A stretch of 64,000 nucleotides of DNA from a bacterium (GTDB taxonomy: Bacteria; Pseudomonadota; Alphaproteobacteria; Acetobacterales; Acetobacteraceae). The notes beneath the pieces were generated by a model, which was given only the letters and a program-made list of their open reading frames with translations, was not told the origin of the DNA and ran no database searches. This document shows positions 15,621 through 46,594 of this stretch, piece after piece; positions within the stretch are counted from its first letter, which is position 1, and every line of letters begins with the position of its first letter. A program made the translations under genes and the position numbers. The stretch covers positions 4,946-68,945 of the forward strand of contig JAMFRO010000093.1 of NCBI GenBank assembly GCA_026224825.1, in the 5' to 3' direction.

Positions 15621-15640
15621 GCGCCGGATAAAGCCACAGC

Positions 15641-15777
15641 AGGGAAGGAAGGCCAAGGGGCTTCGCCCCGTCGTGCGAATGCACGCCTCCGGCGTGACGA
15701 CCCCCACCAAGGGCCGAAGGGCCCTTGGATCCCACCCGGCATAGTAAAGGGGGGGAGGCCCCCTGGCCTTTTTCCTT
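15641..15777. repeat. palindromic mosaic element, copy E (core-less solo form)
   Basis: Terminal inverted AAGGAAGGCC / GGCCTTTTTCCTT. GC hairpins ggggcttcgcccc and gggggggaggccccc. Contains the 32-nt gtcgtgcgaatgcacgcctccggcgtgacgac motif and the caagggccgaagggcccttg hairpin, both shared with copies B, C and D. Confidence 0.7.
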
Positions 15778-20326: not shown

Positions 20327-21100
20327 ATGAAAATCAGCTTCGTCGTCCCCGCCTATAATGAGCAGGTCCTGCTGCCCCGCTCCCTGCAAGCCATACGCGA
20401 TGAAATCGCGCGCGCTGGCCAGGTTCTGGGGCAGGATGCCGAGATCATCGTGGTGAACAATGCCAGTACGGACAACACGCGCGAGGTTGCATCCTCCATC
20501 GAGGGCGTGCGGGTGGTGGACGAACCCCGCAAGGGGCTGGTGCAGGCGCGCTGGTGCGGTTTCGCCCACTCCACCGGCGATCTCATCGCCAATATCGATG
20601 CCGATACCATCATCCCCCCCGGCTGGCTCACCGAGGTGCTGCGCCAGTTCGCGCGCACCCCCAAGCTGGTCGGTCTGTCCGGGCCATACGAATATTACGG
20701 CGTGCCGAAGCGGGTGAACCTGGTCGTCGGCGCCTATTACCACGCCGCCTGGCTGGCCTATGTCATCAACCACTACCTGCTCAACGTCGGCGCCATGCTC
20801 CAGGGCGGCAATTTCGTGGTCAAACGCGAGGCCATGCTGAAACTCGGCAACCCGGACCTGCGCTTCTCCTTCTATGGCGAAGACACCGACATGGCCAACC
20901 GCCTCTCCAAGGTCGGCCGCGTCATCTTCACCTTCCGCCTGCCAGCCCAATCCTCCGGCCGCCGCCTGGTCGGCGAAGGCGTGTTCACCATCGGCCTGCG
21001 CTACACCATGAACTTCATCTGGGCCACCTTCCGCAAACGCCCGTTCACCGAAGAATGGCAAGACATCCGCGAAGAGCCGGTTAAGGGCGGGGTGGTTTAA
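20327..21100 (+). CDS. glycosyltransferase family 2
   Basis: MKISFVVPAYNEQ start, NNASTDNT, and DAD motif (IANIDADTI). The last roughly 8 codons lie inside the terminal inverted repeat of element A. Confidence 0.8.
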   Translation: MKISFVVPAYNEQVLLPRSLQAIRDEIARAGQVLGQDAEIIVVNNASTDNTREVASSIEGVRVVDEPRKGLVQARWCGFAHSTGDLIANIDADTIIPPGWLTEVLRQFARTPKLVGLSGPYEYYGVPKRVNLVVGAYYHAAWLAYVINHYLLNVGAMLQGGNFVVKREAMLKLGNPDLRFSFYGEDTDMANRLSKVGRVIFTFRLPAQSSGRRLVGEGVFTIGLRYTMNFIWATFRKRPFTEEWQDIREEPVKGGVV

Positions 21101-21103
21101 AGG

Positions 21104-21125
21104 AAAAAGGCTGGGGCTCCGCCCC
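21104..21125 (-). terminator. candidate intrinsic terminator at the left end of element A (reads on the minus strand)
   Basis: Minus strand reads ggggcggagcccc followed by agccTTTTTcc. Confidence 0.4.
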
Positions 21126-21299
21126 TGACCCCGCTGGGGCCGCAGGCCCCAGACCCCTAGACTTTAAGGATATGAGAGAGGGGGGAATGCGCCCCATAGG
21201 TTTGTGAACATTGTTCACAAACCTATGGGGCGCATTCCCCCCTCTCTCATATCCTTTTAAAAGCTAATGGGGGTCCGGGGCCTGCGGCCCCGGCGGGTC

Positions 21300-21322
21300 C
21301 AGGGCAGAGCCCTGGCCTTTTT
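21300..21322 (+). terminator. candidate intrinsic terminator at the right end of element A
   Basis: cagggcagagccctg followed by gccTTTTTcc. Confidence 0.4.
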
Positions 21323-21341
21323 CCTTTAAACCACCCCGCCC

Positions 21342-30806: not shown

Positions 30807-31036
30807 GGCGGGGGTGTTTCCACGGAAAAGGCCAGGGCTCTGCCCTGGACCCGCCAAGGGCCGAAAGGCCCTTGGATCCCGTAACTTAAGAATTGAAAAG
30901 GGCCCTGCCACCTAGCTGTTTTAACAGCTGGATGGCAGGGCCCTTTTCAATTCTTAAAAGCTAATGGGGGTCTGGGGCCTCAGGCCCCAGCGGGTCCAGG
31001 GCAGAGCCCTGGCCTTTTCCGTGGAAACACCCCGCC
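30807..31036. repeat. palindromic mosaic element, copy B (outer modules plus core type 2)
   Basis: Termini GGCGGGG(G)TGTTTCCACGGAAAAGGCCAGGGCTCTGCCCTGG are inverted at both ends. Core has perfect 25-bp arms, 30886..30910 / 30933..30957 (ttaagaattgaaaagggccctgcca). The element starts right after the TGA of the left gene and ends right before the TAA of the right gene. Confidence 0.9.
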
Positions 31037-41695: not shown

Positions 41696-43429
41696 ATGGC
41701 TTCAACCACCTACGCCAGCCGTCATTCTGACGCCCCCACCTATTCCGGCCCGGACGATTTCGCGGCCCTCCTCGATGCCGCACTCGGTGCCGGCGCCGGG
41801 TTCGAAGGCTCCGTCGTCTCCGGCATCGTGCTCCGGATCGACGACGATTTCGTCATCGTCGATGTCGGCCTGAAATCCGAAGGCCGCGTCCCCCTCCGCG
41901 AATTCGCGCCCGTCGGCGCCCGTCCGGAAATCAACGCCGGCGATGTCTTCGACCTCTATATTGAGCGTTACGAAGACAAAGACGGCTCCATGGTGCTTTC
42001 CCGCGAGAAAGCCCGCCGTGAAGAGAGCTGGACCCAGCTTGAGAAGGCTTTTGAAGCCCAGACCCGCGTCAACGGCGTCATCCACGGCCGCGTCAAAGGC
42101 GGCTTCACGGTGGACCTCGGCGGCGCCACCGCGTTCCTGCCCGGTTCGCAGGTCGATATCCGCCCGGTCCGCGACGTCGGCCCCCTCATGGGCGTGTCCC
42201 AGCCCTTCCAGATCCTCAAAATGGACCGTCAGCGCGGCAATATCGTGGTCTCGCGCCGCGCCGTGCTGGAGGAAACCCGTGCGGAACAGCGCAGCGAGCT
42301 GATCCATGGCCTCAAGGAAGGCCAGATCCTCGACGGCGTGGTCAAGAACATCACCGATTACGGTGCGTTCGTGGACCTCGGCGGCGTGGACGGCCTGTTG
42401 CACGTCACCGACATCGCCTGGAAGCGCATCAACCACCCGGCCGAGGCCCTGGTCATCGGCCAGCCCGTCAAGGTGCAGGTCATCCGCTTCAATGCCGACA
42501 CCCAGCGTATCTCGCTCGGCATGAAGCAGCTCGAAGCCGATCCCTGGGAAGGCGTCGACGCCAAGTACCCGCCCGGCATCAAGGCCTCCGGCCGTGTCAC
42601 CAACATCACCGATTACGGCGCCTTCGTGGAGCTGGAAGCCGGCGTTGAAGGTCTCGTGCACGTCTCCGAAATGTCCTGGACCAAGAAGAACGCCCATCCC
42701 GGCAAGATCGTCTCCACTTCGCAGGAAGTCGACGTGGTTGTTCTCGATGTCGACGCCTCCAAGCGCCGCATCAGCCTTGGCCTGAAGCAGGTTGCCCGTA
42801 ATCCTTGGGAGGAGTTCCAGGACGAGCACCCGATCGGCTCCGAAGTCGAAGGCGAAATCCGCAACATCACCGAGTTCGGCCTGTTCGTGGCCGTCGGCGC
42901 GGAAATCGACGGCATGATCCACATGTCCGACCTCTCCTGGGAAGAAGCCGGCGAGGCCGCCATCGCGAAGTTCGAGAAGGGCGGCATCGTCAAAGCCAAG
43001 GTGCTCGACATCGACGTTGAGAAAGAGCGCATCTCGCTCGGCATCAAGCAGCTCGAAGTCGATCCCGCCGCCGGCGTGCTGGACAAGGTCCACAAGAACC
43101 AGATCGTCACCTGCGTGGTTACCGCCGTGCAGAGCAATGGCGTCGAGGTTAAGGTGGACGACGTGCTGACCGGCTTCATCCGCCGCGCCGAACTGGCGCG
43201 CGACAAAGCCGAGCAGCGCCCCGAGCGCTTCGCCATCGGCGATACAATCGACGCCAAGATCACGGCCGTCGACCGCGCCGCCCGCAAGCTCCAGCTCACC
43301 ATCAAGGGCAAGGAAATCGACGAGGACAAGCACGCCATCACCGAATACGGCTCGTCCGACTCGGGTGCTTCCCTCGGCGACATCCTGGGCGCCGCCATCC
43401 GCCGCCGGAACCAGGCGACGGACGAGTAA
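41696..43429 (+). CDS. rpsA: 30S ribosomal protein S1
   Basis: Six S1 (OB-fold) repeats, for example GVVKNITDYGAFVDLGGVDGLLHVTDI. 577 aa. Confidence 0.92.
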   Translation: MASTTYASRHSDAPTYSGPDDFAALLDAALGAGAGFEGSVVSGIVLRIDDDFVIVDVGLKSEGRVPLREFAPVGARPEINAGDVFDLYIERYEDKDGSMVLSREKARREESWTQLEKAFEAQTRVNGVIHGRVKGGFTVDLGGATAFLPGSQVDIRPVRDVGPLMGVSQPFQILKMDRQRGNIVVSRRAVLEETRAEQRSELIHGLKEGQILDGVVKNITDYGAFVDLGGVDGLLHVTDIAWKRINHPAEALVIGQPVKVQVIRFNADTQRISLGMKQLEADPWEGVDAKYPPGIKASGRVTNITDYGAFVELEAGVEGLVHVSEMSWTKKNAHPGKIVSTSQEVDVVVLDVDASKRRISLGLKQVARNPWEEFQDEHPIGSEVEGEIRNITEFGLFVAVGAEIDGMIHMSDLSWEEAGEAAIAKFEKGGIVKAKVLDIDVEKERISLGIKQLEVDPAAGVLDKVHKNQIVTCVVTAVQSNGVEVKVDDVLTGFIRRAELARDKAEQRPERFAIGDTIDAKITAVDRAARKLQLTIKGKEIDEDKHAITEYGSSDSGASLGDILGAAIRRRNQATDE

Positions 43430-43672
43430 AGAAAGGAAGGCGAGGGGGCTTTGCCCCCCTCGACCCCCCACTGGGCCTGAGGCCCAGACCCCATTAGTTT
43501 AAGAACTAAAAAGGGCCCTGCCTCCAAGCTGTTTCAACAGCCGGGGGCAGGGCCCTTTTTAGTTCTTAAGTAGCGGGGGTGTGGGGCCGTCACGCCGAAG
43601 GCGTGCTGCGCACGACGGCCCCACGCGGGGGTTAAGGGGGCAAGGCCCCCTTGCCTTTCTTACTTACTTGCC
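43430..43672. repeat. palindromic mosaic element, copy C (gamma-type outer modules plus core type 2)
   Basis: Starts immediately after the rpsA TAA. Core has perfect 24-bp arms, 43499..43522 / 43546..43569 (ttaagaactaaaaagggccctgcc), homologous to the core of copy B. The right module carries the expanded hairpin ggggccgtcacgccgaaggcgtgctgcgcacgacggcccc. Confidence 0.85.
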
Positions 43673-43744
43673 CGTGCCGGTCCCGGCTTAGGGCGGCCTT
43701 AAGCATTGGCCGTTACTGTGGGGTACGAGCCACGGGAGAGCCAT

Positions 43745-45415
43745 ATGGTTGGGGTGTTCAAATCTGCTGCGGCGCTGAATGCTTTGCGCCAGTCTTTTGC
43801 TGTCATCGAATTTGCGCCGGATGGCACGATTCTGGATTGCAATGCGTTATTCGAGCAGACGATGGGCTATGCGCGCGGCGCGATTGTCGGGCGGCATCAC
43901 CGCATGCTGGTTTCGCCGGATTACGCCAACGCCCCGGAATATACCGATTTCTGGCTCAAGCTGCGGGCTGGCAAGTTCGACACGGGCGAGTACCGCCGCA
44001 TGGCCAAGGGCGGGCGCGAGGTCTGGCTGCAGGCCAGCTACACCCCGGTACGCGGGCGCGGCGGCAAGGTGCTGAAAATCATCAAGCTGGCGCTCGACAA
44101 TACGGCTGCGCACCAGAAGGCGGCGGATGACCAGAGCCTCATCGGCGCCATCTACCGTTCGCAGGCGGTCATCGAGTTCATGCTGGACGGCACCATCATC
44201 CGGGCCAATGATAATTTCCTCAAGGCAGTCGGCTATGAGCGTGATGAGGTTGTCGGCAAAAAACATTCCATGTTCGCCGTACCCGGCTTCGCCGCCAGCG
44301 CCGAATACCGCGATTTCTGGCACAGGCTGAGCCGCGGCGAATTTGTCGTGGGTGAGTTCCACCGCGTCGGCAAAGGCGGGCGCGATGTCTGGCTGCAGGC
44401 CAGTTACAACCCGGTTTACAACGGCGCCGGGCAGATTGTGAAAGTCGTGAAATTCGCCATCGACCTGACCGAGGACATGCGCAATGTCGGGCTCGTCGGC
44501 GATGCTCTGGCCGGCCTTGCGAAAGGTGACCTGACGCTGAATGTGAAGGAAAAGCTTATTCCCTCGATGGAGAAGCTGCGCCTCGATTTCAACGCCTCCT
44601 CGCAATCGATGCGTGAGACCATGACCGCCATTTCCGAATCCGCCGCCATCATCAAGGACAGCGCGGGTGAGGTGAGCAAAACCGCAGACCTGCTCGCCCA
44701 GCGCACCGAGCGCCAGGCTGCTAATTTAGAGGAAACCGCGGCGGCGCTGGACAAGATCACCTCCACCGTACGCAAAACCGCCGAGGGTGCGGCCCAGGTG
44801 CGCGAGGTGGTGCGCAACGCCAAATCCGATACCGATACCTCCGGAATCGTGGTGGCCGAGGCGGTGGAGGCCATGTCGCGCATAGATTCCAGCTCGTCGC
44901 AAATCGCCAATATCATCGGCGTCATCGATGAGATCGCCTTCCAGACCAATCTCCTCGCCCTCAACGCAGGCGTTGAGGCCGCCCGCGCCGGCGATGCCGG
45001 GCGCGGCTTCGCGGTCGTCGCCACCGAGGTGCGCGCGCTCGCCCAACGCTCCGCCGATGCCGCGAAGGAGATCAAAACCCTCATCGCCACCTCCGGCCAG
45101 CAGGTCGCCGCCGGCGTTAAATCCGTGGGCGATGCACGGGCGGCCCTGGAGCGCATCGCCACCCATGTCATCAGCATCAACGATTCCGTCGTCAACATCG
45201 CAACCAGTGCCACCGAACAATCCGACGCGCTGAACCAGGTGAACCAGGCCGTGAACCAGATGGACCAGCTAACCCAGCAAAACGCCGCCATGGTCGAAGA
45301 AGCCGCCGCCGCCGCCCAAAGCCTGGCCAACGAAGCCACCGAAATCACCGAAAAACTAGGCCGCTTCAACACCGGCACAACCCGCCGGGCCGTGCGGGTG
45401 CGGGAGCTGGTTTAA
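43745..45415 (+). CDS. soluble methyl-accepting chemotaxis protein with two PAS domains
   Basis: Duplicated PAS blocks ([18 protein letters not shown] / [18 protein letters not shown], and [11 protein letters not shown] / [11 protein letters not shown]). C-terminal MCP signalling hairpin ([41 protein letters not shown]). No TM segment. Confidence 0.85.
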
Positions 45416-45418
45416 GGG

Positions 45419-45442
45419 AAAAAGGCCAGGGCTCTGCCCTGG
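45419..45442 (-). terminator. candidate intrinsic terminator at the left end of element D (minus strand)
   Basis: Minus strand reads ccagggcagagccctgg followed by ccTTTTTcc. Confidence 0.4.
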
Positions 45443-45640
45443 ACCCGCCGGGGCCTGAGGCCCCGGACCCCCATTAGCTTTTAGTGGGATAATGAGAGAG
45501 GGGGCGATACGCACCCCAGATCGTGGAGCTATTCCACGACCTGGGGTGCGTATCGCCCCCTCTCTCATTATCCCAAAAGTCTAGGGGTCTGGGGCCGTCA
45601 CGCCGGAGGCGTGCTTCGCACGACGGCCCCAGCGGGGTCA

Positions 45641-45662
45641 GGGGCGGAGCCCCAGCCTTTTT
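45641..45662 (+). terminator. candidate intrinsic terminator at the right end of element D
   Basis: ggggcggagcccc followed by agccTTTTTcc. Confidence 0.4.
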
Positions 45663-45665
45663 CCC

Positions 45666-45917
45666 TTAAAGCGCCTCCGACCCCGGCACCACCGGGCGGC
45701 TTTCGCGGCTACCGCGCATGCGTTTGTCGGGTTCTTTGGGGTCGTTAGGGGAGATTTCCACGTAGTCGTCGAACACGGCGAGGATGGTGCCGACGAAGGG
45801 GAAGTCGCCGAGTTCGGGCACGCGGTAGCTTACGGTATCACCTGGTTTGAAGGTGTCCGGGTTGAAGTTGAATTCGAACGGGCAGGCTTCACCCGCGGTT
45901 TGTCCCAAGTTTTGCAT
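45666..45917 (-). CDS. hypothetical small protein
   Basis: MQNLGQTAGEACPFEFNFNPDTFKPGDTVSYRVPELGDFPFVGTILAVFDDYVEISPNDP... No family recognised. Its stop lies inside the element D terminus. Confidence 0.4.
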   Translation of the reverse strand: MQNLGQTAGEACPFEFNFNPDTFKPGDTVSYRVPELGDFPFVGTILAVFDDYVEISPNDPKEPDKRMRGSRESRPVVPGSEAL

Positions 45918-46012
45918 TGCTGTTTCTCCGTATTCATCCGGTGTGCCGGAAGCTGGCGTCACGTTACAATATATAGTGGCTCATGGCGCCTGCTATTTGC
46001 AACGTGCGGGCG

Positions 46013-46594
46013 TTAATTGGCCAGCATCACCCTGGCGTGGATGCTCAGCACCACGGCGTCGTTCACGGTTAACTGGTCGGAGATCATGCCGAAGGCAGAG
46101 CGTTGCAGTGTGCCGGTAACGTAGACATCCGCCGTGCCGGCGTTTTGCGAGCCTGGAGCGGCGCTGAGCAATGTGGCGACCATCATCTGCGGCCTGGTCA
46201 CGCCGCGGATGGTGAGCTCGCCCAGTATATCGTACTGGCCCGGGGTGCTGCCTGGTTTGGTCGAGATGCTATGGAAGCGGATCTGCGGAAAATCCTGGGA
46301 GTCGAAGTAATCCTGGGACTCCAGCATCCGCGCGCCGGGCTGCCATGAGAGTGTTATGCTCCGGTCATCCAGCGTCACATCCATGGTGCTGTTCTGCGGC
46401 GCCTGGAAATCCAGCGTCATCCTGCCGCAGAATTTCTGGAAATAGCCTTGGGTGTTGAACAGGCCGGAGGTGGTGAAGCCGATGGTGGCGTAGCGCTGGT
46501 CCAGCACATATGCCACGGGGGCGGCGTGTGCCTGGGCGCTGAGCGGCAGGGCCAGACATATGCCGACGCACCACCGACATATCATCGGGGCCAT
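46013..46594 (-). CDS. YceI-family periplasmic (polyisoprenoid-binding) protein
   Basis: Signal peptide MAPMICRWCVGICLALPLSAQA, then a YceI-like core (IGFTTSGLFNTQGYF..., DYFDSQDFPQIRFHS, GELTIRGVTRP). Confidence 0.75.
   Translation of the reverse strand: MAPMICRWCVGICLALPLSAQAHAAPVAYVLDQRYATIGFTTSGLFNTQGYFQKFCGRMTLDFQAPQNSTMDVTLDDRSITLSWQPGARMLESQDYFDSQDFPQIRFHSISTKPGSTPGQYDILGELTIRGVTRPQMMVATLLSAAPGSQNAGTADVYVTGTLQRSAFGMISDQLTVNDAVVLSIHARVMLAN

What the first reader, a model, noticed from the sequence alone, without database searches (positions are those of the whole stretch)
45414..45480. Stem-preserving (compensatory) differences between outer-module variants
The beta module has hairpins CCAGGGC-tct-GCCCTGG and CCGGGGCC-tga-GGCCCCGG. 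The alpha module has CTGGGGC-tcc-GCCCCTG and CTGGGGCC-gca-GGCCCCAG. Copies B-left and E have CCAAGGGCC-gaa(a/g)-GGCCCTTGG. The substitutions are paired (A-T vs G-C in hairpin 1; C-G vs T-A or A-T in hairpin 2), so pairing is kept while sequence changes. This is the signature expected of a selected RNA or DNA secondary structure rather than a decaying insertion.
Basis: seen in the sequence. Interest (0 to 1): 0.6.

Follow-up and report, generated by a model that had tools for sequence, protein, structure and literature searches.

The report
Hairpin arm of gene-end repeat
The stretch is one arm of a roughly 250-base palindromic repeat that sits just behind genes in many relatives of the acetic acid bacteria, and its two small hairpins do keep their pairing while their sequence changes, which is what this ordinary kind of terminator-like repeat usually shows.

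Summary
Window 45414-45480 is the left arm of a 250-nt nested-palindromic intergenic element (45419-45662).

However, the 'alpha' hairpin 1 has a T.T mismatch, so it is not fully compensated.

The genome holds 281 such arms in 106 paired elements. The same two-hairpin arm occurs in 46 of 201 sampled genomes of the family.

On 120 arms from many genomes, 94.8% of stem cells pair, against 85.6% when shuffled. Twelve of 16 pairs change on both sides, and 0 of 500 shuffles reach any measure. Covariation is therefore real and goes beyond two clones.

Within this genome the variants are old module subfamilies shuffled among loci. Hairpin 2 is intact in 243 of 255 arms, hairpin 1 in only 139 of 263.

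Elements lie right after stop codons: 86 of 88 are in convergent or tandem gaps. Hairpin 1 with its A and T runs is a two-way terminator unit that also occurs alone.

No RAYT gene and no partner transposase were found. Whether the pairing matters in RNA or in DNA is unresolved.

This is a REP/BIME/MITE-type repeat. I found no description of it in print, but this scan has already noted similar families in other genomes of the same bacterial family.

The parts
45419..45425 (+). A-run plus GG, the outer frame of the left arm. It pairs with the CC plus T-run at 45656-45662.
   Evidence: Read. The A-run and GG are invariant in 233 aligned arm ends.
45426..45442 (+). Hairpin 1, 'beta' form: 7-bp stem and TCT loop. 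On the minus strand, followed by the T-run, it matches an intrinsic-terminator pattern.
   Evidence: The terminator scan lists the site on the minus strand at 45442-45426. It is the commonest form, with 104 arms.
45443..45447 (+). Conserved C-rich linker between the two hairpins.
   Evidence: At least 90% conserved across the 120 aligned arms.
45448..45466 (+). Hairpin 2, C-G variant: 8-bp stem and TGA loop.
   Evidence: This variant is in 11 arms, 9 of them next to the GAGAGAG-type core.
45467..45485 (+). C-rich tail and the junction to the core.
45486..45574 (.). Core module: a long near-perfect hairpin of the GAGAGAG-type family.
   Evidence: It is fully paired in the fold of the whole element.
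45575..45588 (-). Junction and G-rich tail of the right arm.
45589..45632 (-). Right-arm hairpin 2, T-A form, with a 28-nt mini-insert (45597-45624) in place of its loop.
   Evidence: Of 35 insert-bearing hairpin 2 arms in the genome, 31 keep an intact base stem.
45639..45655 (-). Right-arm hairpin 1, 'alpha' form: a 5-bp core plus a mismatch.
   Evidence: The terminator scan lists the site on the plus strand at 45641-45653 with a T-rich tail.
45656..45662 (+). CC plus T-run, the outer frame of the right arm.
43706..45415 (+). Flanking chemoreceptor-type ORF. Its stop codon lies 4 nt before the A-run.
Evidence: ORF list.
45666..45962 (-). Convergent 98-aa ORF that ends at the right edge of the element. 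It has no Pfam family.
21097..21332 (.). Copy A of the element family: alpha left arm and beta right arm.
30820..31027 (.). Copy B of the element family.
43430..43668 (.). Copy D, directly after the rpsA stop codon.
15640..15775 (.). Copy E, a partial or rearranged copy.

Best explanation
The stretch is one arm of a modular, palindromic, non-coding repeat of the REP/BIME/MITE kind. The repeat occupies the space just behind stop codons in this genome and in many other members of its family. The genomes that share the module carry Acetobacteraceae-type names. Each arm holds two short GC-rich stem-loops separated by conserved C-rich linkers. Hairpin formation itself is what is conserved. Hairpin 1, framed by an A-run and a T-run, is a two-way intrinsic-terminator unit. 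Hairpin 2 is an accessory REP-like hairpin in the 3' untranslated region. Transcripts from the flanking genes run into the element, the local hairpins fold as they are made, and a hairpin followed by a U-run ends or protects the RNA. This may be a core hairpin or the far-end hairpin 1. Variants that keep a stem persist and spread, so module subfamilies differ by paired changes. The alpha/beta differences in this window are such old subfamily differences, shuffled among loci. Shown: the anatomy, copy number, covariation, gene-end position, terminator-like form and solo units. Inferred: that the structure acts in RNA as a terminator or 3'-end protector, and that selection keeps it.
For: Census: 281 arms and 106 paired elements of 88-284 nt (103 of the 106 are 180-284 nt).

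Stems in this genome: hairpin 2 has a perfect stem of at least 7 bp in 243 of 255 arms. All five hairpin 2 stem classes with 2 or more copies are perfect.

Family-wide spread: the hairpin 2 pattern occurs in 46 of 201 genomes and 38 of 143 genera, with reversed-pattern controls of 0. Named hits include Acidiphilium, Acidocella, Roseomonas, Lichenicola and Acetobacteraceae MAGs.

Covariation on 120 arms: 94.8% paired against 85.6% shuffled, and 12 pairs with two-sided change against 6.6 +/- 1.1. The covariation score is 0.247, against 0.098 shuffled and 0.03-0.07 for slid partners, with 0 of 500 shuffles as high. RNAalifold finds the same helices, and 11 of 14 predicted pairs show compensated changes.

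Local pairing is what is kept, not arm-to-arm pairing: 101 of 102 elements carry different hairpin 2 classes in their two arms.

Gene-end position: of 88 elements, 47 are convergent, 39 tandem and 2 divergent. Stop codons lie -30 to +45 nt from the arm edge, apart from one case at 245 nt.

Terminator form: hairpin 1 plus a T-run is picked up at both ends of the element. The scan finds 9 sites against 2.4 +/- 1.6 in shuffles. At least 12 solo A-run/hairpin 1/T-run units exist in the genome. Solo units occupy two orthologous sites in relative G233. Behind rpsA, most of the 27 same-genus loci that could be read have a classic terminator where this genome has the element.
Against: Hairpin 1 is not needed in every copy. 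Fifty arms carry the T.T mismatch. In 34 arms a 28-nt insert replaces the 3' half of hairpin 1. Only 139 of 263 arms have a perfect stem of at least 7 bp.

Hairpin 2 has no T-run, so it is not itself a terminator. Its inner five pairs hardly vary across genera. That points to a constraint on sequence, for instance protein or DNA-level recognition, and not on structure alone.

There is no excess of G.T over A.C mismatches on the arm strand in the family alignment (26 against 32). In this genome the excess is weak (20 against 9). So there is no RNA-specific signature.

No expression data exist.

At orthologous sites the modules are replaced or decayed rather than compensated. That fits selection on spreading lineages better than host-level selection on each copy.

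The shuffle control does not remove relatedness among copies.
Confidence: 0.55

Rival explanations
1. The hairpins are DNA structures needed for the element to spread. An unknown mobilising or recombining activity recognises single-stranded or cruciform hairpins with conserved flanking linkers. Only lineages with intact stems multiply. Any host-level RNA role is secondary.
For: The inner stem sequence and the linkers are conserved across genera while loops vary freely. Pairing is Watson-Crick on both strands, with no wobble excess. Each genome has its own dominant loop variant, as expected from bursts within a genome. Every element is polar, with two different ends. Presence, absence and module content differ between G000 and G233 at orthologous sites. 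Imperfect hairpin 2 stems are all single copies, while every multi-copy class is perfect. A 28-nt module sits exactly in the hairpin 2 loop in 35 arms.
Against: No Y1/RAYT transposase was found in this genome or in the 5 genomes with the most copies, two of which are assembled in 1-2 contigs. No pair of arms encloses a transposase. The one IS1595 gene found interrupts an element. No target-site duplication could be seen, because the flanks are palindromic rather than directly repeated. There are no matches in the plasmid or phage collections.
Confidence: 0.25
2. No selection on structure is involved. Short perfect palindromes symmetrise themselves. A change in one half is copied to the other by template switching during replication, or by conversion within or between copies. 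Paired differences then arise as single mutational events.
For: Template switching is reported to create and maintain hairpin stems (PMC8794818; only the search listing and the start of the abstract were seen). The modules are perfect palindromes on both strands. Single-copy stems with transversions on both sides exist (CAGGGGCC/GGCCCCTG and CCAAGGGGC/GCCCCTTGG, one arm each). Modules are mosaically recombined: all combinations of hairpin 1 class with hairpin 2 class occur.
Against: Half-changed intermediates are about as common as compensated forms at the most variable hairpin 2 pair. The counts there are 5 U.G plus 13 unpaired against 22 changed on both sides, among 119 distinct arms. A mismatched hairpin 1 form reached 50 copies without being corrected. 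The process does not explain the gene-end position or the A/T-run frames.
Confidence: 0.12
3. The paired differences are only the marks of two or a few clonal subfamilies, or chance, and carry no information on structure.
For: In this genome the C-G form of hairpin 2 is almost confined to one core family (9 of 11 arms). The large classes are few: 5 multi-copy hairpin 2 stem classes.
Against: Across genomes there are many more perfectly paired stem types, with up to four standard pair types at one position. Slid-partner controls, which keep relatedness, fall to 21-59% paired and scores of 0.03-0.07. The reversed-pattern control gives 0 hits.
Confidence: 0.05

Closest known systems
REP sequences, BIMEs and REPIN-RAYT systems of enterobacteria and pseudomonads
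   Same: Short GC-rich imperfect palindromes in hundreds of extragenic copies. They are combined in mosaics with conserved linkers, lie mostly behind genes and between convergent genes, and have been proposed to act in termination and mRNA stability. The description of REPs comes from the abstract and background of PMC3733652 (passages seen). The rest is recalled.
   Different: No GTAG or CGTC tag flanks hairpin 1 or hairpin 2. No RAYT gene was found in 6 of 6 genomes tested. The unit is a 200-280-nt polar palindrome with a long core hairpin. The two arms always differ in hairpin 2.
Bacterial MITEs such as Correia/NEMIS, ERIC and RUP
   Same: 70-300 nt, with terminal inverted repeats and no coding capacity. 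They are inserted next to genes, are transcribed, and fold into strong hairpins (background of PMC3733652, passages seen). Presence or absence varies between related genomes.
   Different: No target-site duplication and no parent insertion sequence with matching ends were found. The modules are exchanged inside conserved A-run/T-run frames.
Two-way intrinsic (Rho-independent) terminators
   Same: Hairpin 1 is an A-run, a 7-8-bp GC stem with a 3-nt loop, and a T-run. It occurs alone in exactly this form. It stands where relatives have classic terminators. Stem covariation with free loops is what terminators show (recalled knowledge).
   Different: In full elements the T-run lies about 230 nt from the A-run, at the far end. 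Hairpin 2 has no T-run. The same hairpin sequence is repeated more than 100 times.
CGTC-tagged REPs (Di Nocera et al. 2013, PMC3733652)
   Same: The 28-nt mini-insert at 45597-45624 begins CGTC and ends GACG when its flanking bases are counted. It is a small double palindrome present in 69 arms.
   Different: That paper states that CGTC repeats were missing in Acetobacteraceae (Discussion passage seen). Whether the mini-insert belongs to that superfamily was not tested.
Earlier notes of this scan on other Acetobacteraceae genomes (e1-4318514, e1-2468420, e1-4266841, e1-4264080)
   Same: Hairpin-rich or nested-palindromic repeats of 120-140 nt just after stop codons. They are family-wide, built like two-way terminators, and were judged to be of the REP/BIME/MITE kind with no description found.
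   Different: Those notes are on other DNA. I did not test whether their sequences are the same modules as here.

Membership tests
REP / REPIN-RAYT | Short (20-40 nt) GC-rich imperfect palindrome in high extragenic copy number | tested here: met
   There are 263 hairpin 1 and 255 hairpin 2 units in 281 arms. 86 of 88 elements lie in non-divergent intergenic gaps.
REP / REPIN-RAYT | Conserved GTAG (or CGTC) tetranucleotide at one end of the palindrome | tested here: not met
   The flanks of hairpins 1 and 2 are AAGG / ACCC(C)GC / ACCCC in the 120-arm alignment. GTAG occurs only in some junction variants. Only the 28-nt mini-insert has CGTC...GACG ends.
REP / REPIN-RAYT | A RAYT (Y1 transposase, PF01797) gene in the genome | tested here: not met
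   0 matches in G000, which is 94% complete. 0 of 5 in the genomes with most copies. The control genomes gave hits.
MITE | Terminal inverted repeats, 70-300 nt, non-coding | tested here: met
   106 paired elements of 88-284 nt, 103 of them 180-284 nt, with inverted arms.
MITE | Target-site duplication | tested here: inconclusive
   The flanks continue the palindrome by a median of 13 nt, and no direct repeat is evident. No clean empty site was found with an otherwise identical flank.
MITE | A parent insertion sequence with the same ends | tested here: not met
   No arm pair 400-6000 nt apart encloses a transposase as its own ends. The single IS1595 gene interrupts an element. Only this one genome was examined.
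Intrinsic terminator | GC-rich stem-loop followed directly by a T/U run, downstream of a gene | tested here: met
   Met for hairpin 1 read on the opposite strand and for solo units. Not met for hairpin 2, which is followed by ACCCC.
Intrinsic terminator | RNA 3' ends form there | not testable with these tools
   No RNA run was listed.
Structured RNA family (Rfam) | Match to a curated covariance model | tested here: not met
   0 matches at gathering score across the whole window.
Structure under covariation (RNA or DNA) | Stem pairs change on both sides more than controls allow | tested here: met
   Caveat: the shuffle control ignores relatedness, and part of the hairpin 1 signal is a paired G/C length change.

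The most novel reading that the evidence does not exclude
The elements may be built and renewed by a process that works on palindrome centres without any recognisable transposase. Modules would be inserted at, or exchanged within, the apex of existing hairpins in conserved 'terminator slots' (A-run ... T-run). This would produce Russian-doll layers, copy-specific palindromic flanks that reach into the last codons of the flanking genes, and different cassettes at orthologous sites in related species. The stem-preserving differences would then be a by-product of a structure-guided DNA mechanism that has not been described.
Probability: 0.15. Interest if true: 0.6.

Novelty: new member of a known kind. 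Interest (0 to 1): 0.3.

Why it matters
The finding shows that the many hairpins behind genes in this group of bacteria are a structured, family-wide repeat and not decaying debris. Its outermost hairpin doubles as the genes' two-way stop signal. That helps annotation of gene ends, 3' untranslated regions and assembly breaks. It also offers a natural set of hundreds of stem variants for testing how terminator hairpins tolerate change. The swapping of modules at fixed gene-end slots is the part worth a closer look. As it stands this is a familiar kind of element, and the scan had already met relatives of it.

Tried and rejected
RNA evidence: no RNA holder was listed for window 42900-46100.

Laying contigs of four metagenome runs gave no contig that bridges an empty site. 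It showed only that the arms have about 90 times the depth of the flanks in run X1.

Empty-site search with the chemoreceptor flank failed because of paralogues and 70-77% identity.

There were no hits in Rfam at gathering score, in the plasmid collection or in the phage collection.

RAYT: none found.

Autonomous partner: three candidate arm pairs 0.6-5.6 kb apart were fetched. ORFs from two of them (L011, L012) were run against Pfam, and only an IS1595 transposase that interrupts an element was found. The third (L013) got only an ORF list.

Target-site duplication: none was recognisable.

Strand test (G.T against A.C mismatches): inconclusive.

Arm-to-arm pairing as the conserved structure: rejected. 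It is the thermodynamic optimum for a full transcript (-217.6 and -220.4 kcal/mol), but 101 of 102 elements have different hairpin 2 classes in the two arms.

Literature: five searches found no description of this repeat in Acetobacteraceae. PMC4686929 mentions MITEs and REPs only in a general list. Subscription journals and supplementary files were not searchable.

Rows dropped before counts:
- Arms with model start after position 12, model end before position 58, or length over 62 nt were left out of the 120-arm alignment. That left 114 of 181 arms found on the fetched loci. The window's insert-bearing arm and copy E were also left out.
- In that alignment six rows with the CCAGGGACC-type hairpin 2 are misregistered by one column and count as unpaired.
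- 18 of 106 elements near contig ends were left out of the gene-orientation count.
Full report
**Observation.** Window 45414-45480 reads: A-run plus GG, a 7-bp hairpin with loop TCT (45426-45442), the linker ACCCG, an 8-bp hairpin with loop TGA (45448-45466), and then a C-rich tail.

One correction is needed. The 'alpha' hairpin 1 is CTGGGGC / GCCCCTG. Its second pair is T.T, so against the beta form one pair is compensated (A-T to G-C) and one is broken. The hairpin 2 variants (C-G, T-A, and the longer CCAAGGGCC stem) are all perfectly paired.

**What the stretch belongs to.** It is the left arm of a nested palindrome, 45419-45662. The order is: arm, a long core hairpin (45486-45574), then an inverted arm of a different variant that carries a 28-nt insert in its hairpin 2 loop.

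A sequence-only profile search (nhmmer, three rounds) finds 281 arms in the 4.27-Mb, 61.6% GC genome. They form 106 paired elements. Three are short (88, 107 and 107 nt) and the other 103 are 180-284 nt. Of the 69 unpaired arms, about half lie within 150 nt of a contig end, so the assembly breaks in these repeats. Rfam has no match in the window.

**Stems in this genome.**
- Hairpin 2 has a perfect stem of at least 7 bp in 212 of 220 arms with a short loop. It also has one in 31 of 35 arms with the insert.
- Hairpin 2 stem classes with two or more copies are CCAAGGGCC (93), CTGGGGCC (78-108, depending on whether insert-bearing arms are counted), CTGGGCC (24), CCGGGGCC (8-10) and TTGGGGCC (2). 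All are perfect. Every imperfect hairpin 2 stem is a single copy.
- Hairpin 1 is looser. Only 139 of 263 arms have a perfect stem of at least 7 bp. Fifty carry the T.T form. In 34 arms the 28-nt insert replaces the 3' half.
- The C-G form of hairpin 2 seen in the finding lies next to one core family in 9 of 11 arms. In this genome it is largely a subfamily mark.
- Hairpin 1 classes and hairpin 2 classes occur in nearly all combinations, so the modules are mosaically recombined.

**Beyond this genome.** A pattern for hairpin 2 with its two outer stem positions and the loop left free hits 75 sites here, against 0 for the reversed control. Of the 75, 74 are Watson-Crick at the free positions.

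In a sample of 201 genomes of the same family the pattern hits 46 genomes in 38 of 143 genera, with up to 136 sites per genome and all controls at 0. Each genome has its own dominant loop. A scan of named genomes returns Acetobacteraceae MAGs, Acidocella, Acidiphilium rubrum, Lichenicola, Lichenicoccus, Roseomonas harenae and Acidisphaera. It also returns a few unrelated taxa that may be chance hits.

**Covariation.** From the fetched loci the profile recovered 181 arms. Of these, 114 distinct arms that covered model positions 12-58 and were no longer than 62 nt were aligned by MAFFT together with 6 arms of the window.

On the two helices:
- 94.8% of 1828 cells form standard pairs, against 85.6 +/- 0.4% after shuffling the 3' partners.
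- 12 of 16 pairs have changes on both sides, against 6.6 +/- 1.1.
- 170 cells are changed on both sides, against 56.
- The covariation score is 0.247, against 0.098.
- 0 of 500 shuffles reach any observed value.
- With partners slid by 1-3 columns, pairing falls to 21-59% and the score to 0.03-0.07.

At the second pair of hairpin 1 the types C-G, A-U, G-C and U-A all occur. At the second pair of hairpin 2, U-A, C-G and A-U occur. RNAalifold predicts the same two helices unaided, and 11 of 14 predicted pairs show compensated changes.

Four caveats apply. The shuffles ignore relatedness. Part of the hairpin 1 signal is a paired G/C length change. One arm per locus was found with a pattern that fixed the inner five pairs of hairpin 2. 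Six rows are misaligned by one column and count against the structure.

**Which pairing is kept.** A full-length transcript would fold best as one long hairpin, arm against arm: -217.6 and -220.4 kcal/mol, z about -18. But 101 of 102 elements carry different hairpin 2 classes in their two arms, and only 27 of 95 share the hairpin 1 class. Arm-to-arm pairing is therefore systematically mismatched where the local hairpins are perfect. The local hairpin is the conserved unit, and every element has two distinct ends.

**Context.** For 88 elements I could call the flanking genes by open frame and third-position GC. Of these, 47 lie between convergent genes, 39 between tandem genes and 2 between divergent genes. 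Stop codons lie -30 to +45 nt from the arm edge, apart from one case at 245 nt.

Read on the opposite strand, hairpin 1 is followed by CC and a T-run. The terminator scan picks it up at both ends of the element. It finds 9 sites in 43300-45800, against 2.4 +/- 1.6 in shuffles.

The genome also holds at least 12 'solo' units: an A-run, GG, one beta hairpin 1, CC and a T-run. That is the textbook form of a two-way terminator. Several sit inside the same G-rich outer layer that flanks about 60% of full elements.

Behind rpsA, most of the 27 same-genus loci that could be read have a classic GC hairpin plus T-run. This genome and its nearest relative have the element directly after the stop codon.

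**Orthologous sites in the nearest relative.** G233 is about 80% identical in DNA. The sites compare as follows:
- Two sites (window copy A and C63:176649) hold elements in both genomes, but with different hairpin 1, hairpin 2 and core modules inside orthologous A-run and T-run frames.
- Two sites hold a full element in G000 but only a solo hairpin 1 terminator in G233. At one of them G000 has two elements around an AraC-type gene.
- Two sites hold an element only in G000 and unrelated hairpin spacers in G233.
- Behind rpsA both genomes have the same arm types, but the G233 copy has unpaired changes.

None of these shows compensation at a locus. The picture is one of turnover of ready-made palindromic modules.

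**Mobility.** No Y1/RAYT transposase was found in this genome or in the five genomes with the most copies. No arm pair encloses a transposase as its own ends, and an IS1595 copy interrupts one element. No direct target repeat is visible. Instead the flanks continue the palindrome, partly in a copy-specific way.

**RNA or DNA.** G.T-type mismatches do not outnumber A.C-type mismatches on the arm strand in the family alignment (26 against 32). In this genome they do so only weakly (20 against 9). No RNA run is available. The question stays open.

**Reading.**
- Most likely (0.55): these are gene-end mosaic repeats whose hairpins are kept because forming a hairpin is their job. Hairpin 1 acts as a two-way terminator stem, and hairpin 2 as an accessory 3'-UTR hairpin.
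- Rival (0.25): the stems are kept because an unknown DNA-level mechanism needs them for spreading.
- Rival (0.12): the stems are kept by self-symmetrising mutation. Template switching is described in PMC8794818, of which I saw only the listing and the start of the abstract.
- Pure clonality or chance (0.05) is contradicted.

**Known relatives and novelty.** The closest known kinds are REP/BIME and REPIN elements, MITEs such as Correia or ERIC, and two-way intrinsic terminators. Membership in the REP-RAYT class fails on the tag and on the transposase. MITE membership lacks a target duplication and a parent element.

Five literature searches found no description of this repeat. Di Nocera et al. 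(PMC3733652, passages seen) even list Acetobacteraceae as lacking CGTC repeats.

This scan has already reported hairpin-rich and nested-palindromic gene-end repeats in other Acetobacteraceae genomes. I did not test whether those are the same modules.

I rate it a new member of a known kind, with interest 0.3. The cassette exchange in fixed terminator slots and the copy-specific palindromic flanks are the unexplained parts.

Noticed in passing
window 45597-45624; also 43589-43616 and about 15670-15698: A 28-nt double-palindromic mini-insert with CGTC...GACG ends when flanking bases are counted. It sits in the hairpin 2 loop in 35 arms and replaces the 3' half of hairpin 1 in 34 arms. In other genera it lies between the hairpins, in the other orientation. 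A 2013 survey says CGTC-tagged repeats are missing in Acetobacteraceae.
   Followed up: partly
G000:C22:38211-38240, C16:21857-21883, C24:9497-9526 and at least 9 more: Solo units made of an A-run, GG, one beta hairpin 1, CC and a T-run, with identical stems. Several sit inside the same G-rich outer palindrome as full elements. They look like minimal two-way terminators that are themselves repeated.
   Followed up: partly
window 21097-21332 vs L161 6721-6921; L163 4650-4897 vs L166; L164 6532-6744 vs L167: At orthologous gene-end sites the relative G233 has different modules inside the same A-run/T-run frames, or only a solo hairpin.
   Followed up: partly
flanks of 78 elements, e.g. G000:C3:28571, C22:111440, C47:15957; window about 45375-45418 with 45663-45706: An element's own left and right flanks outside the A and T runs are complementary to each other beyond what shuffled partners give. 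This extends up to 30-45 nt in 13 of 78 elements and includes the stop codons. The far-outer parts of 5 of 6 tested are single-copy in the genome.
   Followed up: partly
L163 13613-15161 (G000:C63:185612-187160): An AraC-family regulator gene (350 aa) lies between two full elements. The whole 1.5-kb unit is replaced by one solo terminator hairpin in G233. This resembles the chemoreceptor gene bracketed by copies D and C in the window.
   Followed up: partly
L011 1683-2585 (G000:C70): An IS1595-family transposase gene with a zinc ribbon is inserted into an element, leaving a truncated arm beside it.
   Followed up: yes
window 43430-43668 and loci L131-L160: Behind rpsA most genus members have a classic terminator followed by ihfB or a chemoreceptor gene. 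This genome and G233 have the mosaic element instead. L159 has a different inverted-repeat insertion right after the stop codon.
   Followed up: partly
contig ends of G000: About half of the 69 unpaired arms lie within 150 nt of a contig end. These repeats therefore cause many of the 108 assembly breaks. Arms have about 90 times the depth of flanks in run X1.
   Followed up: partly
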